From an uncultured virus (IMG/VR IMGVR_UViG_3300007734_000756) (taxonomy: Duplodnaviria; Heunggongvirae; Uroviricota; Caudoviricetes), in IMG/VR virus record IMGVR_UViG_3300007734_000756: 64,000 nucleotides of DNA; one strand, written 5' to 3'. Positions 118 to 46,619 of the stretch are shown piece by piece. The translations under genes were made by a program, and so were the position numbers. The notes beneath the pieces were generated by a model. It ran no database searches. It saw only the letters and a list, made by a program, of their open reading frames with translations, and was not told where the DNA came from. How positions within the stretch are numbered: position 1 is the first letter of the stretch; each line of letters opens with the position of its first letter.

Positions 118-955
118 GGTTGGTTAGGTCTAGGGTCGTAAAATTAACCGTCCCCGCCGTTACCGTCCCACCAAAGTACGCATTACCAGCAGCTACATAC
201 AAAGAGTATGGGTTGGTGATCGTTGCGCTACCTGCCGCAGCTGGCGCTCCTGCAATGTAGACCGTTGCTGCGTCTGTATAAGTAACAATGTTACTGGTGG
301 ATAGCGTTGGGGTACTAAACACCGTAAACGGTGCAAGCGCTTGCGTTGTGCCGCCAGCCGTCCCAGTGTCGGTATAGGTAGCCCCTTTGATCCAAGCCAG
401 TGCGGGCGCGCTCGCGCTGAGCGTGGTGGTTTTGGAAATATTGGAGTTTGCGGCTATCACCTGGCCATTGATAGTCGTGGTGTCTGCCCCGGCGTTTCCG
501 AGCGTTGAATTGCCGTTGACGCTTAGATTGCCGTTTACAACAAAGTTTCCGTGAACATAGTTGCCAATCTCAACAAAGTCTGACCCGTTCCAGGCTACTT
601 GCGCTGTTTGGCCGGCCCCAATCGTCACGCCCGAAGTGGCCGCTCCTTTGATAACCACCGCGCCGTCTGATTGATTGATGACGACATAAATCTTTGCTTG
701 ACTCGGAGCAACCACGTTTCGCGTTGTGCCAGGCGTCCCCGTAATGATCAGGGTGGACATCCTTGCTTGATTGGACGATCCGTTGGTGGTGCTTAACGTG
801 ACGTTGCCAGCGGTAACGCTGATACTCGCGGCATTGGCAACCGCGTCCTCAAGAAGCGCAGTAATCTCGTCATTAACAACCGTGCCCCACTGGCCTGTTT
901 CGGTTCCCGTGACCGGCTGTGCAAGCCCAAGCAATGCGGTGTAGCTGATAGTCAT
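1..955 (-). CDS. Tail fibre protein, N-terminal part (runs off window start); alternative version of 60298..62970
   Basis: Not in ORF track. ATG at 955 reads MTISYTALLGLAQPVTGTETGQWGTVVN...EVTNIKAKDGTASMTLADSTGVVTFSANPVLNAGTANG, open to position 1; homologous to 60298..62970. Confidence 0.85.
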   Translation of the reverse strand, partial: MTISYTALLGLAQPVTGTETGQWGTVVNDEITALLEDAVANAASISVTAGNVTLSTTNGSSNQARMSTLIITGTPGTTRNVVAPSQAKIYVVINQSDGAVVIKGAATSGVTIGAGQTAQVAWNGSDFVEIGNYVHGNFVVNGNLSVNGNSTLGNAGADTTTINGQVIAANSNISKTTTLSASAPALAWIKGATYTDTGTAGGTTQALAPFTVFSTPTLSTSNIVTYTDAATVYIAGAPAAAGSATITNPYSLYVAAGNAYFGGTVTAGTVNFTTLDLTNLEVTNIKAKDGTASMTLADSTGVVTFSANPVLNAGTANG

Positions 956-966
956 TTCTCAATCCT

Positions 967-1938
967 TTACGCTGCAAGCGTGATTTCTTCCCAATCCGGC
1001 GTCTGGGCATCATTTATGTTTGACCAGGTAACGGATTGGCTATCGTTTACCGCGCCCCAAGTCACTGATTGGGTTGTATTAACGGCGCCCCATGTGACTG
1101 ACTGGCTGTCGTTAATTGCCCCCCAATTTGGGATCTGCCCATCGTCAATTAGACCCCATACTAAGACATTTCCAACAATCCCGGAAGCTGCAACTCCAGT
1201 CAAATTGACCGCTGCGCCGCCGGTCGTCGTGACACTGCCAACCTGCCCGGTGGCCGAGCTGCCTAATACAGAAACCGTGGCGCCGGCGCTAACATCTACT
1301 GTGCCAACTTCTCCAGTGGCCGAAACCCCTGTAACACTGACGTTGGCGTCGCCAGTAACCGCGACACTGCCCACTTGGCCGGTTGCTGACACCCCGTCGG
1401 CAAGAACAATGACAGAGTTACCAATAACATCAACCGACCCTACCTCGCCAGTGGCCGACGATCCAGTAACGTCAACATTTGCAGCTGCTGCAACCTCAAC
1501 CGAACCCACCTGCCCGGATGCAAAAACACCCGTCACATCGGTGTTTGCGTCGCCAGTAACCGCGACATTCCCCACTTCGCCTGAAGCGGTAACACCTGTT
1601 ACTTCAACATTCGCATCGGCGGCGACCGTAATACCTGTCACTTCGCCCGTGGCCGCAACCCCGGTTACATCAGTGTTGGCGTCGCCCGTAACGTCAACTT
1701 GGCCGACTTGGCCAGAAGCAGTAACACCTGTTACTTCAACGTCTGCGCCGCCAGTAACCTCTACGCTACCAACCTGGCCACTCGCGGAAACGCCCGTAAC
1801 CTCTACATCGGCGCTTGCCTCAACGACAACAGCCCCGACTTGCCCGGTCGCAACCAGGCTTACGGAGCCCTCGCCCCAAGCCGCCTCACCCCAGGCTAGG
1901 GCGCCCCAGCCTCCAAGCGGGACGGTAACGTCATCCAC
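967..1938 (-). CDS. V/T/G-repeat virion (tail/fibre-associated) protein
   Basis: Repeats like VTGVSATGEVGTV; GWG N-terminus and W-spaced C-terminal repeats; homolog of 62978..63946. Confidence 0.8.
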   Translation of the reverse strand: MDDVTVPLGGWGALAWGEAAWGEGSVSLVATGQVGAVVVEASADVEVTGVSASGQVGSVEVTGGADVEVTGVTASGQVGQVDVTGDANTDVTGVAATGEVTGITVAADANVEVTGVTASGEVGNVAVTGDANTDVTGVFASGQVGSVEVAAAANVDVTGSSATGEVGSVDVIGNSVIVLADGVSATGQVGSVAVTGDANVSVTGVSATGEVGTVDVSAGATVSVLGSSATGQVGSVTTTGGAAVNLTGVAASGIVGNVLVWGLIDDGQIPNWGAINDSQSVTWGAVNTTQSVTWGAVNDSQSVTWSNINDAQTPDWEEITLAA

Positions 1939-14749: not shown

Positions 14750-16285
14750 TTAGTAGTAAACGGGCTTTCTTCGGAAAGGCTTCGTATCTTCTTCTTCATC
14801 TAAGTCCGCCGTGACGTAGCCGCCTTTTCGGAAACGCATCAATGCTAGTGAAACTGTGTCCACATAGTCATCATTTTCCCCAGATGGAAAAGAGGCAACT
14901 TCGTCAATCACTTCTTCAGCCCAATGCGCGTTAGGCGCCCAGACTCTTCCTGATGCAAAGAGGTCGGACACCGCGTTCAGTCTCGTGATCTTATCGTTAC
15001 CCCGCACGGGGGTAAATTCCTGCACCGGAATGCCCATGGCCCGGAGCTCGTAAATCAATGGTGCTCCAGATGCCTTTTTCTCAATGATTGTGCTGTCCGG
15101 CTCCCAGTCTTTGGTCAACCGCAACACCATTTTCTTCAGTTCCGGGAACTCCACCCTGTCTCGTACAGCATTCAACAAGATGATATTGGCCCTCTCTTCC
15201 CCGTATTCGTTGGGATGGTTGAACACCCCCCATATCGTACAGGCCGAGTAGTCTGCCCTGTTGGATTTCTCAAACGCGGTATCCCATGCCATCAGGGTAA
15301 AGTGACAATAAGGGGGGTCATCCGCCTCCCATATCTTCCACCACTCTCTTTTTACTAACGCTGCGCTCTCAGAAGTGGGACTTTGTTGATACTGAGCTTG
15401 CCATTTCGAGTTCGGGAGCTCCGCTTTAAGCGCCAAAAGCTCGTTTAATGACCAAAACTCCGGCCACAAAGGCTTGTCTGAGGGCAAAATCGCAGGAAAC
15501 TCAATCAGTTCCCACTCATCTCCCCCTCTTTGCACCGAATCCTTCATCACTCGACCCGTCAGATCACGCTTTGACCATCGAGTCATCACCACTACGATAG
15601 AAGCACCAGGTTGCAACCTCTGCCTTGGCCCCGACGTATACCACTCATACACCGTATCAAAGATACTCGGGTCGCTTTCCGCCAGCTTCGCCTGTTGTTC
15701 TGAATGCGGATCGTCAATGATCAACAAATCCGCACCTTTCCCCGTAACCGTACCCCCTACCCCAATAGCAAAATACTCCCCGTTGGCATTCGTAGACCAC
15801 CGTCCAGCCGCCTTAGAGTCATGCCTTAACGCGACATTTGGGAACACCTTGGCATAGGTGTCACTATCGACCAAATTACGCACTTTCCGACCAAATCCGA
15901 CAGCAAGTTCTGCCGTATTGGATGACTGGATGATCTTCTTATGGGGAAATTTGCCCAAAAACCACGCCGGCAAAAGATAACTGGCAAACTCAGACTTGGT
16001 GTGCCGGGGAGGCATATTGATAATCAACCGCTTCAACTCCCCCTTCGCTACCCTCTCAAACGCATCCGCCATGATTTCATGATGCCGGCCACCTATAAAA
16101 CTAGGCCACATCAACTTCACAAACTCCATAAACTTCTGCTGCCCACGATCCCGGCTAATCGCCTTCTTATACTCATCCGCAATCTGAGCTAAATGCTCCC
16201 TCTGCCCAACAGGCAACTTCTCTAACACCCTCTCCAACTGGGTGTCACTCATCTTCCCCAATACATCTAACAACTCATCACTCAA
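14750..16285 (-). CDS. terL: Terminase large subunit
   Basis: MPPRHTKS (Walker A-like), LLIIDDP (Walker B), nuclease WDTA and DDYVD. Confidence 0.95.
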   Translation of the reverse strand: MSDELLDVLGKMSDTQLERVLEKLPVGQREHLAQIADEYKKAISRDRGQQKFMEFVKLMWPSFIGGRHHEIMADAFERVAKGELKRLIINMPPRHTKSEFASYLLPAWFLGKFPHKKIIQSSNTAELAVGFGRKVRNLVDSDTYAKVFPNVALRHDSKAAGRWSTNANGEYFAIGVGGTVTGKGADLLIIDDPHSEQQAKLAESDPSIFDTVYEWYTSGPRQRLQPGASIVVVMTRWSKRDLTGRVMKDSVQRGGDEWELIEFPAILPSDKPLWPEFWSLNELLALKAELPNSKWQAQYQQSPTSESAALVKREWWKIWEADDPPYCHFTLMAWDTAFEKSNRADYSACTIWGVFNHPNEYGEERANIILLNAVRDRVEFPELKKMVLRLTKDWEPDSTIIEKKASGAPLIYELRAMGIPVQEFTPVRGNDKITRLNAVSDLFASGRVWAPNAHWAEEVIDEVASFPSGENDDYVDTVSLALMRFRKGGYVTADLDEEEDTKPFRRKPVYY

Positions 16286-16502
16286 TCTCTCTCACCCTCA
16301 AATACGCCGGCCGAATCGACCTCGGCCTATTAGGCAAGCCCTTACATATCCCCAACTCCACTAACGTCCTCATCTTCCTATTCACATTCCCCCTCCCCCT
16401 ATCCCCCGTAATCCTCATCACATCATCTATCGTCGGCCCAAACCCAAACTTCTTCCACCACTCATCTATCACCAAAAATATCTCCTTCTGCGCCGGCGTC
16501 AT
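16278..16502 (-). CDS. LexA-type winged-helix DNA-binding protein (DNA-binding domain only)
   Basis: MTPAQKEIFLVI...GFGPTIDDV...LVELG...RSIR resembles LexA N-terminal domain; no peptidase domain. Confidence 0.7.
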   Translation of the reverse strand: MTPAQKEIFLVIDEWWKKFGFGPTIDDVMRITGDRGRGNVNRKMRTLVELGICKGLPNRPRSIRPAYLRVREIE

Positions 16503-16608
16503 TTCTATACCCCCCCTACCCCTTTTTTTCCTCACGACCCCACGGGGGGTCTTCCCAATAGCCACCATCTATCAACTCCCAACTTTTCATAGCCCCACCC
16601 CCCCCCAT

Positions 16609-16702
16609 TAGGGTTTTCCCGAATAAGGGTAACACCTGTTACCCTCGTTAGGGTTTACCCTAATTACCGTAACACCTGTTACCCTACCTAGGGTTTACCC
16701 GT
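16609..16702. repeat. 40-bp tandem array of two alternating palindromes
   Basis: TAGGGTTT(A/T)CCC at 16609, 16649, 16689; GTAACACCTGTTAC at 16629, 16669. Confidence 0.9.
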
Positions 16703-17482
16703 AGAGGACACAACGTTTGGTTCCGACGCGGATTCGACGGGTGGGCGCGTGGATTGACGGGGTGATCCGATGTGTGGATTACTAAGCATAGCGGGGGCGC
16801 TCGGGCCCGGCTGCGCGGGGGGTGCCGCCCCGGTGGGGTCGCCGCTCGCCCCGTCGTCGCCCCGTCCGGGGTCAGCTGCCATCACCGCATCGGTAACGCT
16901 GTTACCATCGGCGTCGGCAATCTGGTGCCGTTTGCGGTCACGGCCAGGATGCGAGACAATTTCCGCGTCCATCGAAGTCTGCCGCAGCGCATCGCGCAGT
17001 GATTCGAGCAGCGCCGCCCTGGCCCCAGCTGCATCGATTGCCTGAACAATTTCCCGCCGTTCCGTGAATGCGGCAATCTCGGTCACCTTGCCTAGCAGCT
17101 CAAGCGCGCGGAGTCTCTGAGCGGGTGGCACGTCCTGGCTGAGTGCGTGCTCGGTGAGTTGCTGGATGACAAGTGAGCGCAGAGCAGCGGGTGTTGCGTG
17201 CCTCGCCGCCTCTCCCGCCAGCTGTAGCGCCTCGATTTGCGCGGCGATCTTGGGGTCAGTTTTCAGCCGGTGCGCTTGGTGCCCGACGTGAATCGGTGCT
17301 GCGCTCGTGTCGTAAACCTCCCTGTAGACCTTAGCTGCCGGTTTACCCATTGCCACCCCTTCGGCGAATTTCCTTTGTTTCGCTGTTAGCTTGGTTTCCT
17401 TCGCAGCTGCCGCACCGAGTAACAGAACATCTACCGGGACAGCTTGCAATCCTTCCTTCACTGCTTTCCTGCTGAGTTTCAT
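16688..17482 (-). CDS. terS: Putative terminase small subunit
   Basis: LTAKQRKFAE..A.G HTH-like segment and RLRALELLGK motif; upstream of terL; start uncertain. Confidence 0.65.
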   Translation of the reverse strand: MKLSRKAVKEGLQAVPVDVLLLGAAAAKETKLTAKQRKFAEGVAMGKPAAKVYREVYDTSAAPIHVGHQAHRLKTDPKIAAQIEALQLAGEAARHATPAALRSLVIQQLTEHALSQDVPPAQRLRALELLGKVTEIAAFTERREIVQAIDAAGARAALLESLRDALRQTSMDAEIVSHPGRDRKRHQIADADGNSVTDAVMAADPGRGDDGASGDPTGAAPPAQPGPSAPAMLSNPHIGSPRQSTRPPVESASEPNVVSSTGKP

Positions 17483-17602
17483 TGACGGGTATTTGATAGG
17501 TATTGTCGATTGGCGCATCGTATCCGATAGCTTCCCTTCCCTGCAAGCCTGCTTGCCTTCGGCATTAGGGTTTTCCTGATCCCTTGCGCGCGACTAGACC
17601 GC

Positions 17603-26287: not shown

Positions 26288-27127
26288 CTAGTCGCCACAA
26301 AAGCAAGCTAGGGTTTCCTCTGATGGGTCAAACATCGTGATCTGCTGATTGGCGAACTTCAGCATTTGCGCGTAACTCGGCCTGTCCTTGTGGAAGTAAC
26401 CCCCTTGTGCGATTTTCGGGTTGGTGATGCTGCCCTCCTGCTTGGCCCACCAGATGGCACGCTCTGGCTTCTCCGCAATCAAGGACATGATTTGGTGCGC
26501 CCCCTTGAGGAAGCAAAGGTCGCAGTTGCCATGGAACGTGACCCCGTTGATGTTGGGGAGCTGCAAGTCAAAGGTTTGCGATGACCAGAACTTGGATATG
26601 TCCTGCTTTGAAATCCCGTCTGTTGCCAGTGGCAGAAGCCGAGTCACCCCCTTTACTCCGTCCGATGGGTTTGCCCGAATCTTGGCTACCCGTCTTGGCT
26701 CGTCAGCGCGGATGCCAATCAGGTTGTCCCATTCGTCCCACCCGAGGTGCCTGGCGTACTTGGCCAGCGGTTTGATTTTGAGGTCTACCGTGCAGAAGCG
26801 CGTTACCGGGTTGGGCAGGTAGTTTTTCTTCTTGATGAGCGCCTCAAACGGTTCACCGTTCCGGCTGGCCGACTCAAAGGTCACGATGCGCCACCCCGGA
26901 TCCTCGATCTGATACTCCAGCCAGATAATTGGCACTGACCACTCTTTTGAGCAGCGGTCAACGAACTGGAGCGTCGCCTCATCCTCTTTGCCTGTGTTGG
27001 CAAAGCAAACATGAGCGCCGTCAGGAAGGCCGCCATTGGCCTCCAAAACGCGCCACAGCATATAGGCCGAAGTGCGGCCACCGGAGAAGCTGACGAAGGT
27101 CTGCTCTGTAATTTTGTATGGGTTCAT
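26288..27127 (-). CDS. PAPS-reductase-family (PP-loop) protein
   Basis: SFSGGRTS, FANTGKE, RFCT, GIRADE, GNCDLCF, CFCGD. Confidence 0.8.
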   Translation of the reverse strand: MNPYKITEQTFVSFSGGRTSAYMLWRVLEANGGLPDGAHVCFANTGKEDEATLQFVDRCSKEWSVPIIWLEYQIEDPGWRIVTFESASRNGEPFEALIKKKNYLPNPVTRFCTVDLKIKPLAKYARHLGWDEWDNLIGIRADEPRRVAKIRANPSDGVKGVTRLLPLATDGISKQDISKFWSSQTFDLQLPNINGVTFHGNCDLCFLKGAHQIMSLIAEKPERAIWWAKQEGSITNPKIAQGGYFHKDRPSYAQMLKFANQQITMFDPSEETLACFCGD

Positions 27128-27783
27128 GCAGGCACCTTGTAGTCGTGGAACACCGTCCCACTTGACGGGTCGCCTACTCTACAAGGTTTGACCCAGACCT
27201 TCTTTGTTTTGATCGTGCGCCAATGGCCTCGACGGTCGTGCGCTCGGGGGCTGGCGTGAGTACCACCCAGAGGCTCTCCTTTTGGCCTGGGTAACACTGT
27301 TACTGTTCGCCAATCGTAGCTCGGCTTCTTGCCTTGCGCGATCTTGCGCTTGTTGGTGAACGATTGCTTGACGGTAGGCTGATACGCCGTTTGCTGCGTT
27401 TCTAGCCTCCCCAAAAGAGTCTGGATGATTCCCAGTGCCATCATCGTCGTTTGCTGCTTTGTAGCTCCTTCCGGGTAAACGCCGATGCCCTCATCCTTTT
27501 CCATGTAAACGAATGGATTGATGTCGATCATCGTGTCGCCAAACACAAAGCCCACCACGCTGATTTGTTCGCCAAGGACAGACTTAAGCTGGAACGCTGC
27601 CCTGACTAGCACTCGGCGACGCCCAGCCCTGGCCGCCACAAACACCACATCGTAGGGCAGATGCACCATCAGCTCGGGATCGAGCACGAAGTCGATGGCT
27701 TCAGGGACTTCGCCCAAGTCAAACCAGTAGCCGGCCTCTGGATCGGGCGTCACCCGCGCCAGCTCAGCGATCAGCGGCGTCAT
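27124..27783 (-). CDS. Hypothetical protein
   Basis: GGAGG RBS; GGTHASPRAHDRRGHWR motif. Confidence 0.7.
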   Translation of the reverse strand: MTPLIAELARVTPDPEAGYWFDLGEVPEAIDFVLDPELMVHLPYDVVFVAARAGRRRVLVRAAFQLKSVLGEQISVVGFVFGDTMIDINPFVYMEKDEGIGVYPEGATKQQTTMMALGIIQTLLGRLETQQTAYQPTVKQSFTNKRKIAQGKKPSYDWRTVTVLPRPKGEPLGGTHASPRAHDRRGHWRTIKTKKVWVKPCRVGDPSSGTVFHDYKVPA

Positions 27784-27849
27784 CTAGCCTCCCCGAGTAA
27801 CACCTGTTACTCCCCTGTTGTGACATGATACCCGTACCCGGTCATCTCA

Positions 27850-32327: not shown

Positions 32328-32571
32328 GTTGAGTCTCCATGTGGTTGAACACTTCCTGCTCTAGCCTTTGAACATCATCAGGCGACAACTTCTCATCAAG
32401 CCATGCCGCCCGATAACCCTTGCGATCCAAAAGTTCCCACGTTCCAAACCCACCTTCATCCGGGTAACAGTGTTCCGGTCGCCCATAGAGTTGGCCTGGC
32501 CGATGTCGCTCCCATGAGGTCACGCGCACCCGGCAAGGGATGCCGCCCACTTGCGTATCAAACTCTTTCAT
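32314..32571 (-). CDS. Hypothetical protein
   Basis: GIPC...PEHCYP...LDRKGYRAAWL. Confidence 0.65.
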   Translation of the reverse strand: MKEFDTQVGGIPCRVRVTSWERHRPGQLYGRPEHCYPDEGGFGTWELLDRKGYRAAWLDEKLSPDDVQRLEQEVFNHMETQHEYA

Positions 32572-34783: not shown

Positions 34784-35077
34784 TTACTTCCCCTTGGGCG
34801 GGCGACCGCGACGCTTGGGAGTAACAGTGTTACTCACCACCTTGACCGGAGTAACAGTGTTACTCGGTGCCTTGGCCAGCTCTAGCTCAATTAGCTTCTC
34901 CAAGTAGTGCTGCGCCTTGAGAAGATCCAGTACGCCACCCTTGGCGTGGTGCCGGCTGACGTACTTGATGACGTTGCCCTCAAAGAACCCCAGCTTGTTG
35001 GCCGCGATAAAGTCCCACGGTTGAATCGGGGCTGTCTTGTAATGCACCCCGCCGACTTGCACCTCGTTTGCTGACAT
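34784..35077 (-). CDS. DUF3310-family protein with C-terminal AT-hook
   Basis: QVGGVHY...EGNVIKYVSR...DLLKAQHYL; tail KRRGRPPK. Confidence 0.8.
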   Translation of the reverse strand: MSANEVQVGGVHYKTAPIQPWDFIAANKLGFFEGNVIKYVSRHHAKGGVLDLLKAQHYLEKLIELELAKAPSNTVTPVKVVSNTVTPKRRGRPPKGK

Positions 35078-35079: not shown

Positions 35080-35964
35080 TTACTCCTCAATCCATCCATC
35101 TTGATAATCCCGCCATTGCTGGCAGTACCCATTTACGGGGCAGAAGTTGGCGCAGCGGGTTCTCTCCCCCGGCCTAACCTCCACCTCGTAGTCAGCACCA
35201 AGTTTCTCCACGGCCACCCTGGCGTCCTCTGCGGTGGCGTGTAACGTCTTGGCGCGAACCCCTCCCTTCTTCCGAACTGCATAGATCGTTGGCTTCTCCC
35301 ACATATCTTCAGAAGAGCACCGGGGCAGCTGCTCGCCCGCCTCCATGGCGAACTCACAAGCCGAGTGCTGTGCAATCCGGTGCAGGACAAACGCCTCTCG
35401 GTCTGCCATCGGCCACAACCGGATGGGGAGCTCCTTGACGGGCGCCTCCGGGTAGCCCTCGCGGGTAGTGGAGTCCCGCCGGTTCCAATCACGGATGATG
35501 GCCACAATCCCCAAGTCCCTGACCAGCACGCCCTTCACTTTCTCCACCAAAAAGGCGTAAATGTTCAGCTGCTGCTCCCACTCAATCTTCTCGTTCATGA
35601 CCGACCATGCCGAGGTGGTCTTATAGTCACGCACACTGATCGTGCCGTCGTCGTTCTTGATCTGCAAATCAATGGCCCCGCTGATGCGCCACCCATCTAG
35701 TTCGGCATGGATGCGCTCCTCAACAACGTGGTTCGGATCCTTGCCATGCTCCAACACGGAATGGACGGCAGACCCAAAGATTGACCACACCATGTCTGCG
35801 GCGTCTTCCTCTAGCTCATCCTGAAACTTATTGCTTAACGCGACAATTTTTGGAGAGTTGATAAGCTGGGTAACACTGAGATTGGCGCGGCCCTTGGAGT
35901 AGGTCGGGCGCTTCAATACGTTGACAATTGTCTGCGGCAGGTTGTGCTTGTTGGTAATCTTCAT
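35080..35964 (-). CDS. PD-(D/E)XK (RecB/Cas4-like) exonuclease
   Basis: GSAVHSVLE, SGAIDL, DYKT, QLNIY, terminal Cys cluster; AAGGAG RBS before MKITN. Confidence 0.8.
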   Translation of the reverse strand: MKITNKHNLPQTIVNVLKRPTYSKGRANLSVTQLINSPKIVALSNKFQDELEEDAADMVWSIFGSAVHSVLEHGKDPNHVVEERIHAELDGWRISGAIDLQIKNDDGTISVRDYKTTSAWSVMNEKIEWEQQLNIYAFLVEKVKGVLVRDLGIVAIIRDWNRRDSTTREGYPEAPVKELPIRLWPMADREAFVLHRIAQHSACEFAMEAGEQLPRCSSEDMWEKPTIYAVRKKGGVRAKTLHATAEDARVAVEKLGADYEVEVRPGERTRCANFCPVNGYCQQWRDYQDGWIEE

Positions 35965-35982
35965 GTGATCTCCTTGAAGCAG

Positions 35983-36011
35983 ATTGTCGGGCATAACAAA
36001 GCCCTTGTCAA
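35983..36011 (-). promoter_or_regulatory. Sigma70-type promoter of the recombination operon
   Basis: TTGACA-17-GACAAT. Confidence 0.65.
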
Positions 36012-36073
36012 CAGTCTATACCCATTCCGGGTCATGTGTTGCATCATAGGGTAACAGGTGTTACTCTGTACCC

Positions 36074-36427
36074 ATGAAACCAATCCAATTGCTTCTGCCG
36101 TGGCCGCCGAGCGTCAACCATTACTGGTTGTCTCGGGGCAATGCCCGTTTCATCGGCAAGGCTGGCAGGGCGTTCCGCCAGGCCGTAGCTGAAGAATGCG
36201 CCGGCCAGGAGGTGATGGCGCTAGAGGGACGGTTGGCTGTGTATGTGTCTCTGTTCCCGCCCGACAAGCGGGCGAGAGACATTGACAACATCTTAAAGGC
36301 GTTGCTCGATGCTTGCGAGCACGCCGGCTGTTACACCTCAGACAATCAAATCGACGAGCTGCACGTCGTGCGGCAGGGCGTCCAGAAGGGCGGTCACTGC
36401 ACCGTTGTGATTGTGCCCATCACCTGA
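36074..36427 (+). CDS. rusA: Holliday junction resolvase RusA
   Basis: LPWPPSVNHYW, PPDKRARDIDNILKALLDA, DNQID. Confidence 0.92.
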   Translation: MKPIQLLLPWPPSVNHYWLSRGNARFIGKAGRAFRQAVAEECAGQEVMALEGRLAVYVSLFPPDKRARDIDNILKALLDACEHAGCYTSDNQIDELHVVRQGVQKGGHCTVVIVPIT

Positions 36428-42400: not shown

Positions 42401-45400
42401 TCATCGGAGTAGCGGTGGCCAATTTCGCCAGTTCATCAAATTCCGCGCGTGAAATGGCTCCTTGCCACTCGGCGGTTTCTGTTTTGACCTGACCGCGCTC
42501 GCTATCTTCGTACTGAACCGCCTGTTGCTGCTCGTCAAGCAGAGCGGTGTATTTGCCAACAACATCACTTTCCGCAGGCTCTTCCGTCGGGATCGACTGA
42601 AGATAGTTGTTCAGCTGTTGACGCTGCTCGCCGATGCCGCCAGAAGTAACATTGATACTCGCCGTGCTTGGGATGCGGCCAGCATTCACCAAGTCTGCGA
42701 CAGCAGCGCGCATGACCTGCTGATACTCTTTGCCACCAACAATCAGAACGTCCTGGATGTTGGTCGGCCACGTTACCTTTGCCAGTTCTGCGCCCAGGTT
42801 GGAGAGCATCTCCTTGGCCCGCGTCGGCGTCATCACCTGATCGTATGGCTCAATCTCTTGAGTCGGATCGATGAACCCATGCTTGGCCGAAAGGATGATG
42901 ACGTTTGGCTGCGCTCCTGGCTTGACGTTGCTGGCAAACGATTGGAAGAAGACGCCTTTGTACAGCTCCATCGCGGGCGCGGCCTTGGCTCCTTTCTTTG
43001 CGCAGCATGGCATCAGCACTAAACGATTATCTGCTGGCAGATCAGCCGGAGGAGTTTCGTTGTTGACTACCGTATCGGCGGTAACACCCGTTACTCCTTG
43101 CGCCTTCTCATACGCAATCAGTTCGCGGCGGCGTTTTAGCTGCGCCGGAGTAAGCTCTTTGCCGGGATCGCGCTCTGATTCCTTCAACTCTTTGCGCGCC
43201 AACCGGATGTTCTCTGGCTCTTTCGCGGCCCTCTCGGGAACCACCGTGGTGACCAAGCGCGAATACTTGGGCGGCGTTTGATCCGTGCCAAGCGACTTCA
43301 GTTCGTTCTTAATCCGCCAAATGTTAAGCGGGATGTTGAACCCTGTAGCCACCTCTACGATGCGCCCAAACCTATACTCGGCAAGGTCTTGCGGGTCTTT
43401 GCTTACCGCAAGATATTTCTCTCTGGCCTCTTGATTTGCTGGCGACAGCTTCGGCTCGGGCGCTGCTTCACCAAGCTCCATTTGTCCACGGGCTGCGGCC
43501 TCGTCTGCCGCGCGATCACTACCCGTAAGCACAAAGTCACCACGCGCCTCATCGGCCTTTGCTTTGCGCTCGGCTTCAGCAGCTTCTTGCGCGCGCCTGG
43601 CGTCCGCTTCTTCTTTGGCTCGGATGTCTTCCGGGGTGGGTGCGGTGAGCAGGTCTTCGTCAAACAAAGACGGCCCAGCTGGTGGCTCTTCAACGATAGT
43701 GGGCGCAGGGGGCGCTACACCACGGGCAGCGCGGATCTCGGCCACAAGATCAGGGCTGGTTGACCAGTTGTCCCAGGCGGTCTTGCGCCGCTTCAGCTCC
43801 TCGATGCGACGCTTGATGGCTTCTGGATCGCGGACATCAATACCCTCTGCCTTGGCCAGCGCCGGGTTCTTGGCTGCACCGCTGATGGCAGAAAGCCGTG
43901 TCTGAATCTCGCGTTGCTTTTGAGATGCGATCTTGGCCATCTCTTCGGCTTCGCGGATGGCACTATCGTCAAAGCCAAACATATCTAGCGTGGTGTCGGT
44001 TTCGCCAGCCAGAGCTTTGACTGCCTGCATCATGTTCGTGGCGGTGTTCATGGACTTGCCGTCCTGAATCGCCTTGATGCCTACGCTTTGCAAGCGCGCG
44101 TCGCTGGGTGCATTTAGCGCGATGTAGAACGCGGCCTCATCCCCGATTTGGTCGGCACGAACTGCGGCAATGAGTTCATCGCTTCCTTGAGTTGCGATTG
44201 CGTAAGACCGCTTGCCCGTAGCCCTCGCCAGAAGGCCTCTTGCGTCGGCATCTTGCTTGGTGATGCCGCTTTCTTTGAAGTAATTGACATAATCTTTTAC
44301 CTTTCCTTGGCCATCACGAATGTTGAGTTCTGCGTCCAGGATGGAGGCTTGCAGCTTATTGAACCCCTTGGCCTCGTCGTGGATCTGCGCGGGAATGGTT
44401 GTCTCGCCGCTGCGCTTGGCCAGATCAAACCTGTGCCGGCCAGAGATGACCTCTAGCGACCCATCAAGCCTGCGCCAAACTTGAATGGGCGCAACCCCAG
44501 TGCGCTCAAACTTTCCACCAAGTGGCTCAACAATCCCCTCGGCAGTGGCGCCAATCTTGAATTGCGGCACGTCTTCGGAGAGCTTCAGCTGCGTCAGCGG
44601 CACCTCGACCGTTGGCATCCCATCGGCTTCCAGGTCTACTGTCGCCGGCTCAAACTCCTTGGGCTTGGCGATCGGTGCGACCGTTGGCGTTTCAGGAAGC
44701 CTGGCCGCTGCTTGGGTCGGCGTGAATGTCGGAGTAACAGGTGTTACTTCCTGCGTAACTTCAGTTACAGGTTTGGTTACTTCTTCCGTAAGGGTAACAG
44801 GTGTTACTGGTTCATCCGGCGGTTTGGCGGCGGGAGTAACGGGTGTTGCTTCAAGCTCTTCTACCTCTTCCCCGGTAGGCATTCCGGGGATCGCCGCTAC
44901 GGGTCGAGTAACAGGTGTTACACCCTTTGGCGCGGGGGCGGGTGGCGGAGTGGGTTCTGGCGCCCCGGCTTGCGGTGCCTCGCCCTCTTCTGGCGGCCCC
45001 AGGCGCGGTTCTGCGCGGGCAGTGACCGGGATCTCGCCGGCAATCGTCGGTTCTGCTTTCTCGGCGGCCTGAGCGACCTCTCCAATCGTTGGCTCGGCGC
45101 GACCCGCCGGCGGAGCGACTTCCCCTACCGATGGCTCTGCGGGTTCAGTAGACGGAGGCTCGGGAAGCGTTCTGGCCAGCTCTGCTATGGTCGTTGGGCG
45201 GATGCCAGCAGCTGCCGCAGCACCCTCTCTGCGAATGCCTTCGCGGGTGAAGTCCGTTTCCGCGACGCCGGACTCAATGGCTTCAGCGATCTGCGCTTCG
45301 CGGGTCGCTGCTCGCGCTTGACGTAGGGCGGCGGCAACGTCTACCGGAGCGGTAACGCCCTCGGCAATTCCTTCAAGCAATACCTCTGCGGGTTTGTTTT

Positions 45401-46619
45401 CGCCAGTAGCTTGTTGCGCCGCAAACTCTCCCCCCGCGCCGGCGCCCATCTGTAGCGCAAGTTCTTTGCTCCACGCAGCAATCGTTGCTTTCTTGGCTGC
45501 GGCACCCGACAGCTTGCCGGCGGCAATAAGTTCATTGGCTGGACGCAAAAACCTGCCCGCCATTCCCATGGAAATCGCATCAAACGTGCCGATGATTAGG
45601 CCGCGCTTGGCGCCCTTTTCTTTCATCTCCGCCAGAATCTCAGGGTTCTGGAGCGCGCCGGCAACCTTGGAGGCGTCCGTCAGCTCAATCCCCTTGTCTT
45701 GCAGGACATCCCCCATGACTGCCGCATACTCCATCGAGGCGGATGCGGCAAACGCAGCAGCAGGTCGCGCCGGCCCGGCCAGAGCGGTTGCCGCCAATGC
45801 GGGCGCCGTAACGAGCAGTGAATCCACAAGCAGCGACAGGGTGGCTCGGGGATTTCTGAGCATCGCCTCGGCAGCGTCGCCGTAGGTTTTGGCTCCTCCA
45901 ATAGCCTCTAGTCCTTGCTGAATTTCTTCCGAAGGCGCTGCGGCCCCGCGCTGTCGTGCTTGCCGCCGGATTAGTTGCGCGGCATCGTCGGGTGATAGCG
46001 CGCCCGTGGAAAACAAGAGACTGGTTGATAGGTCTTTTAGGTTGGCATCCGCGCGCTTAAACGTATTGGCCGTGCTTTCCAAGAACGTCGGCTCAATCTT
46101 TCGCATCTCCCCGCGTGGCTCGGGCAGCTGGCCTGGCTCAGTGGTTCGCGGCCTGAACAAGTCGCTGCCTCGCTTTTGTCCGTGACTGACTATTTCTGAC
46201 CATGCAATCCCAAGTTTTTTGAACCCCTCGATAACTTGGTTTTTGTCGGCGCCCTCTTCAAGAAGATTGACCGCATCGTCTAGCGCCTCGGCTCGACTGC
46301 GATACGGAGTTGGTTCGGCGGGCTTAACTGGCTCCGGCGCAGGCTGCGCTGTCATTGGCGTGACGGTTTCTTCCGGCGACCGGAGGGGCTCAGCGGGCTC
46401 CGCAACTCGTCTGCCTAGTGAGGCCAAACTGGCCTGAGGCGGCAGGATCGGCCCCTCTTCCACCGGGGCGGGCGGAGTAACAGGTGTTACTGCTTCCACT
46501 GGCTCAAAGCCCGCCATCGTTCCCGCTGCGGGCAATGTTGCCGGCGGCGAGGCAGGGGCTTCTAGTGGAACAAACCGATAGGCCGGCCCTTCAATTTCCG
46601 ACAGCGGAACGAATCGCAT
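36420..46619 (-). CDS. Giant (3399 aa) polyvalent internal virion protein
   Basis: ParB-like SGRHR segment, DUF6884-like CCAKK...LY...ILSAKHG, two HExxH motifs (HEMGH, HELSH), LPD38-like C-terminus. Confidence 0.8.
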   Translation of the reverse strand: MRFVPLSEIEGPAYRFVPLEAPASPPATLPAAGTMAGFEPVEAVTPVTPPAPVEEGPILPPQASLASLGRRVAEPAEPLRSPEETVTPMTAQPAPEPVKPAEPTPYRSRAEALDDAVNLLEEGADKNQVIEGFKKLGIAWSEIVSHGQKRGSDLFRPRTTEPGQLPEPRGEMRKIEPTFLESTANTFKRADANLKDLSTSLLFSTGALSPDDAAQLIRRQARQRGAAAPSEEIQQGLEAIGGAKTYGDAAEAMLRNPRATLSLLVDSLLVTAPALAATALAGPARPAAAFAASASMEYAAVMGDVLQDKGIELTDASKVAGALQNPEILAEMKEKGAKRGLIIGTFDAISMGMAGRFLRPANELIAAGKLSGAAAKKATIAAWSKELALQMGAGAGGEFAAQQATGENKPAEVLLEGIAEGVTAPVDVAAALRQARAATREAQIAEAIESGVAETDFTREGIRREGAAAAAGIRPTTIAELARTLPEPPSTEPAEPSVGEVAPPAGRAEPTIGEVAQAAEKAEPTIAGEIPVTARAEPRLGPPEEGEAPQAGAPEPTPPPAPAPKGVTPVTRPVAAIPGMPTGEEVEELEATPVTPAAKPPDEPVTPVTLTEEVTKPVTEVTQEVTPVTPTFTPTQAAARLPETPTVAPIAKPKEFEPATVDLEADGMPTVEVPLTQLKLSEDVPQFKIGATAEGIVEPLGGKFERTGVAPIQVWRRLDGSLEVISGRHRFDLAKRSGETTIPAQIHDEAKGFNKLQASILDAELNIRDGQGKVKDYVNYFKESGITKQDADARGLLARATGKRSYAIATQGSDELIAAVRADQIGDEAAFYIALNAPSDARLQSVGIKAIQDGKSMNTATNMMQAVKALAGETDTTLDMFGFDDSAIREAEEMAKIASQKQREIQTRLSAISGAAKNPALAKAEGIDVRDPEAIKRRIEELKRRKTAWDNWSTSPDLVAEIRAARGVAPPAPTIVEEPPAGPSLFDEDLLTAPTPEDIRAKEEADARRAQEAAEAERKAKADEARGDFVLTGSDRAADEAAARGQMELGEAAPEPKLSPANQEAREKYLAVSKDPQDLAEYRFGRIVEVATGFNIPLNIWRIKNELKSLGTDQTPPKYSRLVTTVVPERAAKEPENIRLARKELKESERDPGKELTPAQLKRRRELIAYEKAQGVTGVTADTVVNNETPPADLPADNRLVLMPCCAKKGAKAAPAMELYKGVFFQSFASNVKPGAQPNVIILSAKHGFIDPTQEIEPYDQVMTPTRAKEMLSNLGAELAKVTWPTNIQDVLIVGGKEYQQVMRAAVADLVNAGRIPSTASINVTSGGIGEQRQQLNNYLQSIPTEEPAESDVVGKYTALLDEQQQAVQYEDSERGQVKTETAEWQGAISRAEFDELAKLATATPMKRGQKYSIQLVDTPEESSVLAMTARGLAPTQRQVEVVLVRQRSVVVPEEEQYTPEQRKNAEVHAKELGGEIVWQRGDNALIRGYARLSGAPVYIATAGDTRARIDIESLSDRLVSDDVKQEMIDVKKRLEAEAAEKHNAAPFITFQDGLAMSQDIPEQLAGVIKEWKSLLKLDVPIYVSTIEDARTNRNNFTGPHRAIGSGTLNANDLGSMRMMPDSSYYILFDKSTSTTKMLETIAHEMGHVHQSLFYDRASQEEKDALRDAHKKWLESQKGKTAREMIDSMRARSTGRAVPVREGMQSNELSNYWRMFGEWYADQTARWALSSARPVTIVEKYFKRLGIQLRRFFQQLQARKYLPNETFAQYIEKATGGPAAIEPTAPGIGAAVMGERMMNAATRFRKAAMNQFKLTQEQADAAMGKLIKEKVLTLDPVTGQFELKDGRFWDREVMLRAAEAQQGVKLMNIPEKKKLPPGRSPELAEAAQQLQRGEITAQKFDELVNRYRPIPVYFAPLQPATSEQVYNALDSAKRDKIDPKIPAGYPVGLRLDIPAFNRAGVFVVSIHEKRTPSSPGKVIGYSSAASIKNVTFGLGNQREALKIAAGSAKDAIQTMEGTFVPITADQAYQMADDAILSGDWVQVGFDPTRHAYFFDRSSTMPVVAADEVIQIGNMILAKGVTYGRKEDFLYDVIGRPAAPEPSLMTREGELIVGREAVREYQIKEYAALRKKLAGVAKKVAEGEVDIDVQRNTTEMMQKSRELQSAIKASKPRVDTPEAFLAKALQEYDKGNIDKDVLDVIQAAYGKQPELLDGLLLSVRKGAGEAVGSFDPMRRIVYLYKSTSGTYEPRTIRHELSHALEQMMTPEQRMVVVQAWGKALARAIKQNPDELHQRYFDAILKFLDNPSQRTLNNAQMLLPGYEMYQFINPSEYWAVNAERLMASQLGTAWDRFKRAVQQLFEGLKKVLGFDNQYDVHRVFGQVMKGSKERITRETLVDIVMSSVGDGSQFVTLNNIEPAKNLKEKYSRPNTPMLDTTPITTFVTKQFKNGKEYFKEAAANPSMVGNDVINGLIAMRNQNIWYGSGLEARDFAQYNGALKTSNGFATASVALDNAIRGGNIGTEVIFRGGIEFNEKARNFVAVERDMGMRGVYEAEKALKDRIGDQLGTDTIQGYLEAKRSISIMTELYTREAALDAAKARRDLLQSMGAEPDEIAMAKEAVEQAEQEVASIKKAASSVNMSEEEMYEFAALEEEYPELRTIMDNWTAINQNLLKFWRQVGLLSQGRYETLAAIKDYVPWYRIMDDEKDLHDQSEIQSTTRTMTNIGREKLFKRGRPIAVVDFRATQGQTDFKIQPSSVVQVEVNGKQVDPSLVTTTPEGDVRLDLELNENDLVVFKTNREIQNIIDNMTRNVMRMTMNGLRQFAANRIVLEYATRNEKGKVMTYPSVDRPKGRFNWIVNGKKVVVEISDPLVAEAIYGMDNINLRMWAPLAAVANLTRRSITLSGAFQIKQVFKDAPTAALVTGVKNPLALIGGVWKGFLTSLTNTDPVVDILKAAGIGGFHSPARTPEAEIKRRLGIMNGNIFDFVIKGLDHIGDSSDMAQRVATYKRVLKETGDETQALYRAANVINFLHHGSAGYAQAMVKVVPFMGAYLNSSDVLIRALAGSGLKGVSRKKALLRLGVTTGLLTGATLLYCMLAGADPEYDELDDQTKLRNVMIPGTKIMMPMNTSAAFIFKAIPELIYNTVTREGTENELDRRRVRKALADAARDMLLGPEPVPAGVKPVLEVLLDRNFYTGRTVIPEGLKDVAAAEQYTASTSELGKALSALMSIPGTDDKRMLSPIEADHLVRGIFGSAGAMAQWASNSIGVIAETRPEPTARETPVIGGFLREDIPRGREDLFYDFKKEVFEKYKTWNKMIDREDFDAADAYLDKHGDIVGMYQYINRTEDELSDINKEIRRVGESRSKDLSPKERRQEMDELRRIKLDILEPVKELRREIFR

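What the first reader, a model, noticed from the sequence alone, without database searches (positions are those of the whole stretch)
282..46490. Genome-wide palindrome GTAACA-N1/2-TGTTAC written into genes in several frames: candidate phage parS/matS-like site system
Seen: 15 perfect copies found by eye. The identical 14-mer GTAACACCTGTTAC is at 1589, 1721, 16629, 16669, 27797 and its reverse complement at 36051, 44734, 44794, 44908, 46477. 13-mers are at 282, 21942, 27291, 34821, 34851. Near or compensatory variants are at 16893, 23025 (GTAACGCCCGTTAC), 32464, 42646, 43081, 44755. Twelve fixed bases with two spacings give about 0.01 expected copies in 64 kb at uniform composition. Inside genes it is read as VTGVT, VTPVT, SNTVT, SNIVT, VTLL and VTVL, so selection appears to act on the DNA, not the peptide. 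Established: dispersed intragenic palindromes are how parS (ParB) and matS (MatP, GTGACRNYGTCAC; the 13-mer differs at two symmetric positions) organise chromosomes. Inference: a protein binds these sites to organise, position or protect the phage DNA. Candidates are the ParB-HTH protein (25472..26260), the ParB-like domain of the giant virion protein, the LexA-like protein, or a host factor.
Basis: partly seen in the sequence, partly recalled or inferred. Interest (0 to 1): 0.88.

Follow-up and report, generated by a model that had tools for sequence, protein, structure and literature searches.

The report
Phage ParB-like protein's dispersed binding palindromes
A 13/14-base palindrome written 15 times across this aquatic phage genome is most likely the binding site of the phage's own ParB-family protein, making it a virus version of the parS/KorB-operator idea rather than a chance or peptide-driven repeat.

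Summary
GTAACA-N1/2-TGTTAC occurs 15 times, against 0 in shuffles. Eleven copies lie in genes, against a mean of 0.17 in 2000 synonymous-codon shuffles, so selection acts on the DNA. The core TAACA-N1-3-TGTTA is shared by a large clade of uncultured aquatic phages (111 copies in 1.14 Mb; 2-15 per near-complete genome). The outermost base of each half-site tracks one residue of the phage ParB-like protein (25472..26260): position 12 of its helix-turn-helix, the first residue of the recognition helix. K gives G in 124 of 128 half-sites and R in 10 of 12; S gives T or A; N and M give A; Q gives C. Across phages the match is 57 of 58, and a single K/R clade is rejected (p-AU 0.005). The LexA-like protein shows no such mapping. 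The protein has a ParB/Noc/KorB fold and a modelled coiled-coil dimer, but no ParA partner. Sites are enriched between genes and just upstream of gene starts. The most conserved array lies between terS and the LexA-like/TerL genes. Binding and function (KorB-like regulation versus organisation or packaging) are inferred, not shown.

The parts
282..294 (.). site GTAACA-A-TGTTAC (13-mer), inside ORF 2..955(-), read SNIVT
1589..1602 (.). site, 14-mer centre CC, inside ORF 967..1938(-), read VTGVT
1721..1734 (.). site, 14-mer centre CC, inside ORF 967..1938(-), read VTGVT (internal protein repeat 132 nt from the previous one)
16629..16642 (.). site, 14-mer, intergenic array between terS-like and LexA-like/TerL genes; arms extend to AAGGGTAACA
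16669..16682 (.). site, 14-mer, same array, 40 bp from the previous, 5 bp after the terS-like stop
21942..21954 (.). site, 13-mer centre C, inside ORF 21804..22094(+), read VTLLP
27291..27303 (.). site, 13-mer centre C, inside ORF 27124..27783(-), read VTVLP; 1043 bp upstream of the ParB-like start
27797..27810 (.). site, 14-mer, intergenic, 13 bp upstream of the start of ORF 27124..27783(-), i.e. at the head of the operon that holds the PAPS-reductase-like, ParB-like, helicase and primase genes
34821..34833 (.). site, 13-mer centre G, in the 3' end of DUF3310 ORF 34784..35077(-) (SNTVT), 38 bp upstream of the Erf-like gene start
34851..34863 (.). site, 13-mer centre G, same ORF tail, 30 bp from the previous
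36051..36064 (.). site, 14-mer centre GG, intergenic between divergent exonuclease (35080..35994 -) and RusA-like (36074..36427 +) genes; 40 bp upstream of a sigma-70-like -35 hexamer on the - strand
44734..44747 (.). site, 14-mer, giant gene aa 625, read VTPVT; no counterpart in relative G002
44794..44807 (.). site, 14-mer, giant gene aa 605, read VTPVT; conserved at the homologous place in G002 amid diverged flanks
44908..44921 (.). site, 14-mer, giant gene aa 567, read VTPVT; no counterpart in G002
46477..46490 (.). site, 14-mer, giant gene aa 44 (about 130 nt after its start), read VTPVT
44837..44850 (.). decayed copy (2 arm mismatches) at the place where G002 has a perfect site
16893..16905 (.). 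1-mismatch variant GTAACG-C-TGTTAC
23025..23038 (.). symmetric 2-mismatch variant GTAACG-CC-CGTTAC
32464..32476 (.). 1-mismatch variant
42646..42658 (.). 1-mismatch variant
43081..43094 (.). 1-mismatch variant GTAACA-CC-CGTTAC
25472..26260 (-). ParB-like protein, 262 aa. It has a ParB/Srx-fold N-domain (GFHRYHA where M. xanthus ParB has GERRWRA), an HTH at residues 121-141 with K132 as the first residue of the recognition helix, and a C-terminal coiled coil at about 176-261. Proposed binder of the sites.
16278..16502 (-). LexA_DNA_bind-only winged-helix protein (about 74 aa counted from the conserved Met; the ORF as listed is 16278..16568). Its end overlaps the TerL start by 8 nt. Rival binder, or a possible partner protein.
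16688..17518 (-). terS-like gene (phrog_51, E 9e-10); the site array starts 5 bp after its stop
14750..16285 (-). terminase large subunit, first large gene downstream of the array
16608..16701 (.). 40-bp-period array: three copies of a second palindrome (TTAGGGT-TT-ACCCTAA type) interleaved with the two GTAACA sites

Best explanation
The palindromes are the recognition sites, in the parS or KorB-operator sense, of the phage's own orphan ParB-family protein (25472..26260). A coiled-coil dimer places one helix-turn-helix on each RGTAACA half-site. The first residue of the recognition helix (K132) reads the outer G, and the flexible tether between the DNA-binding domains and the coiled coil tolerates a centre of 1 or 2 bases. 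The sites sit at module boundaries: the head of the ParB/helicase/primase operon, the exonuclease/RusA divergent region, upstream of erf, and an array directly before the LexA-like/TerL/structural operon. Further copies lie inside genes. I infer that the protein works as a ParB-type regulator or organiser of the phage genome. My leading guess is that it controls promoters near to and at a distance from its sites, as KorB, VirB or BisD do. Whether it represses or activates is unknown, and so is whether it uses a nucleotide-driven clamp. Shown here: the excess of sites, DNA-level selection, conservation across relatives, covariation of residue and base, the ParB fold, and the placement bias. Inferred: binding itself, dimer geometry, nucleotide use and the biological role.
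For: (1) Excess and DNA-level selection: 15 copies against 0 in shuffles, and 11 in coding sequence against a mean of 0.17 and a maximum of 2 in 2000 synonymous shuffles.

(2) Family trait: 111 core sites in 1,136,156 bases around 80 ParB loci. My arithmetic expects about 3 at uniform composition. Near-complete relatives with K at the key position carry 11, 2, 8, 6 and 2 sites and 4 (G002); the backwards control pattern gave 0 everywhere.

(3) Specificity covariation over 92 distinct ParB proteins. K gives outer G in 124 of 128 half-sites (26 phages) and R in 10 of 12. S gives T 37, A 27, C 4, G 4, and splits by subclade. N gives A in 7 of 8, M gives A in 4 of 4, Q gives C in 4 of 4, A gives A 10 and C 8, and G is mixed. 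Per phage: K/R with G-majority 26, K/R without 1, non-K/R with G-majority 0, non-K/R without 31. The fewest changes on the best tree are 10 (K/R status) and 9 (G-majority status). Forcing all K/R phages into one clade costs 72 lnL units, p-AU 0.005.

(4) Lineages whose ParB helix departs from xMT[VI][GS]R lack the core upstream of ParB (0 of 17, against 26 of 61 with the usual helix). Two of them carry other dispersed palindromes: L302 has TGGCAAC-GTTGCCA x3, and L304 has TGGAA-N4/5-TTCCA x5, again with a 1-base spacer wobble.

(5) Loci that separate the candidates. L265/L253 have a divergent LexA-like helix and a usual ParB helix, and the sites are present. L271 has a near-usual LexA-like helix and a divergent ParB helix, and has 0 sites. 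L306 and L307 contrast in the same way. The variable residue of the LexA-like helix maps to no base: A goes with T14/C8/G20/A10 and S with A19/G16/T5/C4.

(6) Protein family. The profile against PDB hits M. xanthus ParB 7o0n at E 1.3e-6, plus Spo0J 1vz0 and the H. pylori ParB entry 4umk, across N-domain and HTH. The AF2 model has pLDDT 84.9 with helices at 121-128 and 132-141. Foldseek's top hits are ParB, Noc and KorB (8qa8, 8qa9), probability 1.00, E from 6e-8.

(7) Homodimer model: score 0.46 against a best control of 0.00. That mark was reached by 20 of 30 proteins solved as pairs and 1 of 23 solved as single chains. Runs agree in at least 44% of contacts, partner pLDDT is at least 68, and the interface is an in-register coiled coil at 177-260.

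(8) Placement. In relatives 44 of 108 sites are intergenic against 10.5% of random positions (p 4e-16), and 60 of 108 lie within 150 bp upstream of a gene start against 31% (p 2e-7). In the window 4 of 15 are intergenic against 3.7% non-coding sequence (p 0.002).

(9) Precedent. In ParB and Noc the HTH recognition helix enters the major groove of the palindromic site, and four interface residues set specificity (PMC7383237, passages read). KorB acts from operators 4 bp to more than 1 kb from its target promoters (PMC11790492, section 'Main' read).
Against: No binding experiment exists, and all evidence is comparative.

ParB, the LexA-like protein, terS and TerL co-occur throughout the clade, so presence or absence cannot separate them. 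Only the residue-base covariation and a handful of loci do.

The tree backbone is weak. On strongly supported branches treekit finds only 1 independent pair, so the sign test cannot reach significance, and the careful tree never finished. The AU test used groups named after the tree had been seen.

S maps to two different bases, so there is no simple one-residue code.

The most conserved site position is upstream of the LexA-like/TerL genes (28 of 35 rows). A site within 1300 bp upstream of ParB is less common (26 of 61).

The ParB box II is GFHRYHA rather than GERRWRA, with the Glu and one Arg replaced. Pfam ParB_N is below its cut-off for the single sequence (14.8 against 26.3 bits). A CTP clamp therefore cannot be assumed.

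Most sites (11 of 15 here, 64 of 108 in relatives) lie inside genes and have no promoter role I can point to.

At the terS junction the arms extend to 10-11 bp with lineage-specific symmetric flanks. That could instead mean a stem structure or a second protein.
Confidence: 0.68

Rival explanations
1. The sites are operators of the small LexA-DNA-binding-domain protein (16278..16502). This protein would autoregulate the late operon and shut off or switch on other modules.
For: Pfam LexA_DNA_bind scores E 9.6e-6, above the family cut-off. In 28 of 35 distinct rows a core site lies within 700 bp upstream of the gene. Lineages with a strongly altered helix have other palindromes at that place: L302, L304 and L190. 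An AAC-N4-GTT geometry resembles what I recall of Gram-positive SOS boxes (recalled, not tested).
Against: The variable residue of its helix shows no relation to the outer base. L265/L253 have a divergent helix but keep the sites, while L271 has a near-usual helix but no sites. In L302 and L304 the ParB helix changed as well, so those cases do not discriminate. The protein lacks the LexA dimerisation/peptidase domain (only about 74 aa).
Confidence: 0.12
2. The palindromes act as nucleic-acid stems. These could be RNA hairpins for processing, stability or termination, or DNA hairpins or cruciforms for priming or packaging.
For: The outer pair is seen as G-C, T-A, A-T and C-G in different lineages. 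At the terS junction the symmetric flanks extend the arms to 10-11 bp and differ between lineages. A 1-2 base change in the centre is easy for a loop. Some sites fold well (-12.8, -10.9 kcal/mol).
Against: The 5-bp core TAACA/TGTTA is invariant in phages whose ParB proteins share only about 39-66% identity with the window's, and shows no compensatory changes. That points to sequence read-out rather than pairing. Stability is very uneven, from -2.2 to -12.8 kcal/mol as RNA. A 6-bp stem cannot close a loop of 1-2 bases. No T-run follows the sites. In L265 the outer bases are not complementary. A stem would not explain why the outer base tracks a ParB residue.
Confidence: 0.07
3. The array after terS is the pac/cos recognition site of the small terminase, and the dispersed copies are secondary or decoy sites.
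For: Arrays of 2-8 copies at spacings of about 24-58 bp lie directly after the terS stop and before TerL in most relatives. The terS-like gene co-occurs with the motif.
Against: Up to 15 dispersed copies would scatter packaging starts. Conserved sites at the ParB operon head and in other modules have no packaging logic. No covariation with terS was tested, whereas ParB covaries.
Confidence: 0.06
4. A host protein (MatP-like, host ParB or another nucleoid factor) binds the sites.
Against: There are 0 matS-consensus matches with up to 1 mismatch. The outer base follows a phage-encoded residue. The spacing varies, whereas matS as quoted has a fixed spacing. The host is unknown, and no close prophage was found.
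Confidence: 0.03

Closest known systems
KorB and its OB operators on plasmid RK2 (ParB-family global regulator)
   Same: Both are ParB-fold plus HTH proteins; Foldseek hits KorB 8qa8/8qa9. Both have palindromic sites spread over a roughly 60-kb mobile genome, some next to promoters and some far from them or inside genes (KorB distances from PMC11790492). A small second DNA-binding protein with its own interleaved palindrome might play the KorA part, but this was not tested.
   Different: No ParA/IncC partner and no ParA-binding motif are present. Dimerisation is by a long coiled coil. Box II reads GFHRYHA, so CTP use is unknown. The site is 13 or 14 bp with a variable centre. The genome is a phage with no sign of plasmid or prophage life.
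Chromosomal ParB (Spo0J)/parS and Noc/NBS
   Same: The domain order is the same: ParB N-domain, HTH, dimerisation domain. The sites are palindromic and often lie inside genes. In both, specificity is set by a few recognition-surface residues (PMC7383237).
   Different: The phage protein is an orphan with no ParA. The site sequence is different. There are 2-15 sites scattered over the whole small genome rather than clustered near an origin. It is shorter (262 aa) and has no LG(K/R)GL motif.
VirB (Shigella) and BisD (ICEclc): ParB-like transcription switches
   Same: These are ParB-like proteins without a partition role that load at specific sites and act on promoters at a distance (abstracts seen). 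This matches an early or middle-module ParB-like gene whose best-conserved array sits before the late operon.
   Different: No evidence here for activation, anti-silencing or CTP dependence. The sequence relation is only at the fold level.
N15/P1 prophage-plasmid partition sites (recalled, no call)
   Same: A phage genome carrying ParB-type centromere palindromes, which in N15 are dispersed.
   Different: Those phages live as plasmids and encode a ParA/SopA ATPase. None was found here.
matS/MatP
   Same: A 13-bp palindrome of similar outline.
   Different: The window has no match to the consensus. The protein fold expected for MatP is different (ribbon-helix-helix, recalled). It would be a host factor, not a phage one. 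The spacing here is variable.

Membership tests
ParB family (ParB/Srx N-domain + HTH + dimerisation domain) | ParB/Srx-fold N-terminal domain | tested here: met
   Profile against PDB: ParB 7o0n E 1.3e-6, Spo0J 1vz0 E 2.7e-6. Foldseek: ParB/Noc/KorB, probability 1.00. The single sequence is below the Pfam ParB_N cut-off (14.8 against 26.3 bits).
ParB family (ParB/Srx N-domain + HTH + dimerisation domain) | Central helix-turn-helix that reads a palindromic site | tested here: met
   The HTH is at 121-141 in the model and aligns to the Spo0J and H. pylori ParB DNA-binding region. Read-out of the site is inferred from residue-base covariation, not measured.
ParB family (ParB/Srx N-domain + HTH + dimerisation domain) | C-terminal dimerisation | tested here: met
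   Homodimer model scores 0.46 against a best control of 0.00, with an in-register coiled coil at 177-260. This is a model only, and the element differs from the canonical ParB C-domain.
ParB family (ParB/Srx N-domain + HTH + dimerisation domain) | Box II GERRxRA arginine patch / CTP binding and hydrolysis | tested here: inconclusive
   GFHRYHA aligns to GERRWRA: G and one R are kept, Glu becomes Phe and Arg becomes His. The Q-x-R of box I is kept (Q16, R18 invariant). The ParB fold can bind CTP, ATP or GTP (PMC12704722, passages). Nucleotide binding was not testable here.
ParABS partition system | Cognate ParA ATPase | tested here: not met
   No ParA-like hit among the ORFs scanned against Pfam and PHROGs. 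Small ORFs under 50 aa were not scanned.
ParABS partition system | N-terminal ParA-binding motif (L/F/I)G(K/R)G(L/F/I), as defined in PMC12704722 | tested here: not met
   The motif is absent from the 262-aa sequence when read directly. The protein starts only 9 residues before the conserved IRxDG.
KorB/OB-type global regulation | Operators proximal and distal to promoters across the replicon | tested here: inconclusive
   Sites are enriched between genes and within 150 bp upstream of starts, but promoters are not mapped. The sigma-70 scan found 3 candidates against 9.4 in shuffles.
KorB/OB-type global regulation | Clamp-locking partner (KorA/TrbA-like) with adjacent operator | not tested
   A second palindrome is interleaved with the sites at 16608..16701, and a small wHTH gene lies next to it. 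This is suggestive only.
matS/MatP | Match to the matS consensus quoted in the finding | tested here: not met
   0 matches with up to 1 mismatch.
LexA/SOS box | LexA with S24 peptidase/dimerisation domain binding a fixed-spacing box | tested here: not met
   Only the N-terminal LexA_DNA_bind domain is present, about 74 aa. The spacing varies by 1 base. There is no covariation with its helix.

The most novel reading that the evidence does not exclude
A virulent-looking aquatic phage clade carries its own chromosome-organising system. An orphan ParB clamp would load at 2-15 genome-wide sites, spread or slide from them, and couple the timing of replication and late transcription to packaging, given that its best-conserved array abuts terS/TerL. 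The small LexA-like protein would act as a KorA-like lock. The clade would also supply a natural recognition code for the first residue of the ParB recognition helix: K/R reads G, S reads T or A, N/M reads A, Q reads C.
Probability: 0.2. Interest if true: 0.8.

Novelty: new variant of a known kind. Interest (0 to 1): 0.62.

Why it matters
Orphan ParB-like proteins are common in phages, but a recent survey of the fold describes no target sites or role for them (PMC12704722, passages read).

This clade offers a defined site, a defined candidate binder and dozens of natural specificity variants. The question of what phage ParB-like proteins do therefore becomes directly testable with EMSA or DAP-seq and a single-residue swap.

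If the protein acts at a distance as KorB does, it would extend ParB-type long-range control from plasmids and integrative elements to phage developmental programmes.

The sites also show that phage genes can be constrained by DNA-binding sites written through several reading frames. This matters for codon-level analyses and for phage genome recoding.

Tried and rejected
- **N4-like hairpin promoters.** Rejected. The 3399-aa protein is a polyvalent protein (LPD38, DUF6884), and no RNA-polymerase domain was among its Pfam hits.
- **GTWAC restriction or methylation target.** Rejected. The half-sites are not enriched outside the palindromes.
- **Centre polarity.** In the window all C/CC centres lie below 28 kb and all G/GG centres above 34 kb on the + strand. 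Relatives show no single switch, and the same site class occurs in both orientations or with symmetric GC centres. I treat this as not functional.
- **Near-identical phage records.** Megablast of the giant gene found none.
- **Whole genome of the window.** Not held.
- **Earlier notes of this scan.** Nothing returned.
- **Literature search for the exact 14-mer.** 0 papers.
- **Literature search for orphan ParB-like proteins, parS and lytic phages.** Among the 12 of 161 papers listed, nothing described this system.
- **Single-protein query with an S-type ParB.** It found only 14 loci, so an alignment query was used instead.
- **treekit independent pairs.** On strongly supported branches there was only 1 pair, so the test has no power. 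The careful tree did not finish in two runs.
- **Sigma-70 and terminator scan.** Uninformative.
- **Hairpin energies.** Heterogeneous.
- **Scan of bacterial genomes for ParB relatives.** It found only N-domain plus HTH homologues at about 31-47% identity in many phyla, and full-length matches only on short MAG contigs. There was no close prophage and no usable host clue.
- **ParB-like domain in the giant protein.** Not found.
- **Not attempted.** Sequencing-run and read mapping, and a metagenome-contig scan.

Full report
**1. The observation**

GTAACA-NN-TGTTAC occurs 10 times, always with centre CC or GG. GTAACA-N-TGTTAC occurs 5 times. Neither pattern occurred in 100 dinucleotide-preserving shuffles, and base composition predicts about 0.016 copies.

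With up to one arm mismatch, only spacers of 1 and 2 are found. None has spacer 0, 3 or 4. The listed variants are real.

The half-site alone is not enriched. GTAACA occurs 30 times, 15 of them inside the palindromes. The palindrome is therefore the unit.

**2. DNA-level or peptide-level selection?**

Eleven sites lie in ORFs. They fall in two phases and read as six peptides (VTGVT, VTPVT, SNTVT, SNIVT, VTLLP, VTVLP). Four sites are intergenic.

I shuffled synonymous codons within each gene, which keeps every protein and each gene's codon usage. This gave a mean of 0.17 copies and never more than 2 in 2000 runs, against 11 observed. GTAACA encodes Val-Thr 14 times out of 153 VT pairs, although GTA and ACA are among the rarer codons for Val and Thr.

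In the giant gene the sites sit in a poorly conserved Pro/Val/Thr-rich linker. Relative G002 has perfect copies at two homologous places, and the window's copy is perfect at one of them and decayed at the other. The flanks have diverged freely, and other copies are gained or lost. Selection therefore acts on the nucleic acid.

**3. What the genome is**

The window is most of a phage genome:
- a terminase, portal, head, tail-fibre and endolysin module;
- a replication/recombination module (primase, helicase, Erf-like, exonuclease, RusA-like);
- a 3399-aa polyvalent protein with LPD38 and DUF6884.

TerL is at most 54.6% identical to any deposited phage. Pelagibacter phages HTVC027P and HTVC023P are among the closest named isolates. 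Many uncultured aquatic relatives exist in IMG/VR. One of them is a complete, syntenic 66,451-bp genome, G002. No integrase or ParA was seen. No close prophage was found in bacterial genomes.

**4. The motif is a clade trait with conserved places**

The core xTAACA-N1-3-TGTTAx occurs 111 times in 1.14 Mb around 80 ParB loci. My arithmetic expects about 3 at uniform composition. Near-complete relatives carry 2 to 11 perfect GTAACA-type copies, and the backwards control pattern gave 0. The window's 15 is the highest count seen.

Two places recur:
- A site or an array of 2-8 sites lies between terS and a small LexA-like gene that overlaps TerL. It is present in 28 of 35 distinct rows.
- A site lies within 1300 bp upstream of the ParB-like gene in 26 of 61 phages with the usual helix. 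In the window the operon-head site (27797) lies 1550 bp upstream and is not the one counted; the window counts through 27291, at 1043 bp.

Sites are four-fold enriched between genes (44 of 108 against 10.5% of random positions). They are also enriched within 150 bp upstream of gene starts (60 of 108 against 31%). Even so, more than half lie inside genes.

**5. Which protein?**

ParB-like, LexA-like, terS and TerL genes always travel together, so co-occurrence cannot decide. What does decide is specificity.

The ParB-like protein has a textbook 20-residue HTH at residues 121-140. The pattern of Ala at position 5, Gly at 9 and a hydrophobic residue at 15, and the role of position 12 as a base-contacting residue, are recalled knowledge. 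In the AF2 model the helices are 121-128 and 132-141, so K132 is the first residue of the recognition helix.

Across 92 distinct ParB proteins, the outermost base of each half-site follows this residue:

| Residue at HTH position 12 | Outer base of half-sites |
|---|---|
| K | G in 124 of 128 |
| R | G in 10 of 12 |
| N | A in 7 of 8 |
| M | A in 4 of 4 |
| Q | C in 4 of 4 |
| A | A 10, C 8 |
| G | any base |
| S | T 37, A 27, C 4, G 4 (T in one set of subclades, A in another) |

Per phage, the link between K/R and a G majority holds in 57 of 58 cases. The one exception is L306, with 1 of 2 half-sites.

On the best ParB tree, K/R status changes at least 10 times and G-majority status 9 times. 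A tree that holds all K/R phages together is 72 lnL units worse, p-AU 0.005.

Two caveats apply. On strongly supported branches only one independent pair can be certified. The groups for the AU test were named after the tree had been seen.

As a control, the variable residue of the LexA-like recognition helix maps to all four bases. Individual loci point the same way:
- L265/L253 have a divergent LexA-like helix and a usual ParB helix, and they keep the sites.
- L271 has the reverse combination and has none.
- L306 and L307 differ in the ParB helix and in the site.

Lineages with quite different ParB helices carry different dispersed palindromes. One of these families again has a one-base spacer wobble (L302, L304). 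In those lineages the LexA-like helix has changed too.

**6. What the protein is**

A family profile hits solved ParB and Spo0J chains across the N-domain and HTH (E 1.3e-6 to 3e-4). The model (pLDDT 84.9) matches ParB, Noc and KorB structures best.

The box II motif reads GFHRYHA where M. xanthus ParB has GERRWRA. The Q-x-R of box I is invariant. Nucleotide use is therefore open. A recent survey shows that this fold can bind CTP, ATP or GTP (PMC12704722, passages).

The C-terminal third is a long helix pair. A homodimer model passes the tool's mark:
- score 0.46 against a best control of 0.00;
- the mark was reached by 20 of 30 proteins solved as pairs and 1 of 23 solved as single chains;
- at least 44% of contacts are shared between runs, and partner pLDDT is at least 68;
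- the interface is an in-register coiled coil at 177-260.

This supports a dimer but does not show one. There is no ParA and no ParA-binding motif.

**7. How it most likely works**

A coiled-coil dimer places two flexibly tethered HTH domains on the two RGTAACA half-sites. That arrangement would tolerate 1 or 2 central bases.

The sites mark the heads of modules:
- 27797 lies before the operon that holds the protein's own gene;
- 36051 lies in the exonuclease/RusA divergent region, 40 bp upstream of one of the few sigma-70-like promoters;
- 34821 and 34851 lie before erf;
- the array at 16629/16669 lies before the LexA-like/TerL/structural operon, upstream of a G-run/TATA element conserved in the relatives examined.

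The closest working model is KorB. [quoted passage not shown] VirB and BisD are activating relatives (abstracts).

Still unknown are whether the phage protein represses or activates, whether it slides, and what the intragenic sites do. Those sites could be loading points, roadblocks or organisers.

**8. Rivals**

- The LexA-like protein as binder is the main rival. It loses on covariation.
- A stem-structure role is suggested by symmetric, lineage-specific flanks at the junction site. It is weakened by the invariant core, the uneven stabilities and the link to a ParB residue.
- A pac-site role for the junction array cannot be excluded, but it does not explain the dispersed copies.
- A host MatP-like factor is not supported.

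**9. Verdict**

This is a new variant of a known kind: an orphan, coiled-coil ParB-family protein with 2-15 dispersed 13/14-bp sites in phage genomes. I found no description of it in the searches made. Binding and function remain to be tested.

Noticed in passing
G005 record, positions 33753-41882 (loci L216/L217): A more distant relative (TerL 63%, with no detectable ParB-like, LexA-like or terS homologue) carries 8 copies of a different 20-bp palindrome, ATTCGTTAC-NN-GTAACGAAT. In the flanks I read by eye, several copies sit between same-strand genes just upstream of a ribosome-binding site. It contains the same GTTAC/GTAAC pentamers in swapped order.
   Followed up: partly
L147 (= G002), about 9730-9775, just upstream of the LexA-like gene: Three tandem copies of TTATCCACA lie directly beside the GTAACA site. 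I recall this sequence as the DnaA-box consensus. They stand where the window has its second palindrome instead.
   Followed up: no
window 16608-16701: A second palindrome (TTAGGGT-TT-ACCCTAA type, 3 copies, 40-bp period) is interleaved with the two GTAACA sites. It is also seen in close relatives L122, L123 and L132-L136. It may be the operator of the adjacent LexA-like protein.
   Followed up: partly
window 16503-16610 and the same place in relatives: A conserved G-run followed by TATA(T/A)AT-like bases lies upstream of the LexA-like/TerL genes, often twice, with a C-run (CACCCCCC) in between. It is present in all relatives examined, including those with other palindromes. It could be a promoter, a long-range stem or a packaging signal.
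   Followed up: no
window, all 14 sites with a C or G centre: On the + strand the centre is C/CC for the 7 sites below 28 kb and G/GG for the 7 above 34 kb. All ten 14-mers have CC/GG. Relatives show no such single switch and use other centres (GC, TG, GA), so this is probably history or gene conversion rather than function.
   Followed up: yes
window 26288-27127: A PAPS-reductase-like gene (phrog_424, E 2e-52) sits between the operon-head site and the ParB-like gene. G002 has no detectable tblastx match to this stretch. In L124/L125/L128 the site-bearing region upstream of the LexA-like gene is replaced by coding sequence that I read by eye as a similar gene; this was not searched. ParB-like plus PAPS-reductase pairs are a known but unexplained gene pair (recalled).
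   Followed up: no
L302 (532, 10451, 19886) and L304 (5024, 6670, 7389, 12434, 12471): Lineages with other ParB helices have their own dispersed palindromes. In each lineage one copy lies inside the ParB-like gene, at about +430 to +450 from its start. In L260, L254 and L265 a TAACA-type site lies inside the gene at +310 to +570.
   Followed up: partly
window 36420-46619: The 3399-aa virion-type polyvalent protein has only two confident Pfam domains (LPD38, DUF6884). Its hypervariable Pro/Val/Thr-rich linker (around aa 560-630) gains and loses sites between relatives.
   Followed up: partly
Genome-contig loci L381, L384, L404, L405, L422, L434 (one Planctomycetes chromosome) and others: Homologues of the N-domain plus HTH part (about 31-47% identity, without the coiled coil) are widespread in bacterial genomes of many phyla. 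Six copies lie in a single chromosome.
   Followed up: no
window 7025-7762 and 23135-24010: Two ORFs, one in the structural module and one in the replication module, both match the same PHROG of unknown function (phrog_1574, E 6e-34 and 6e-39).
   Followed up: no
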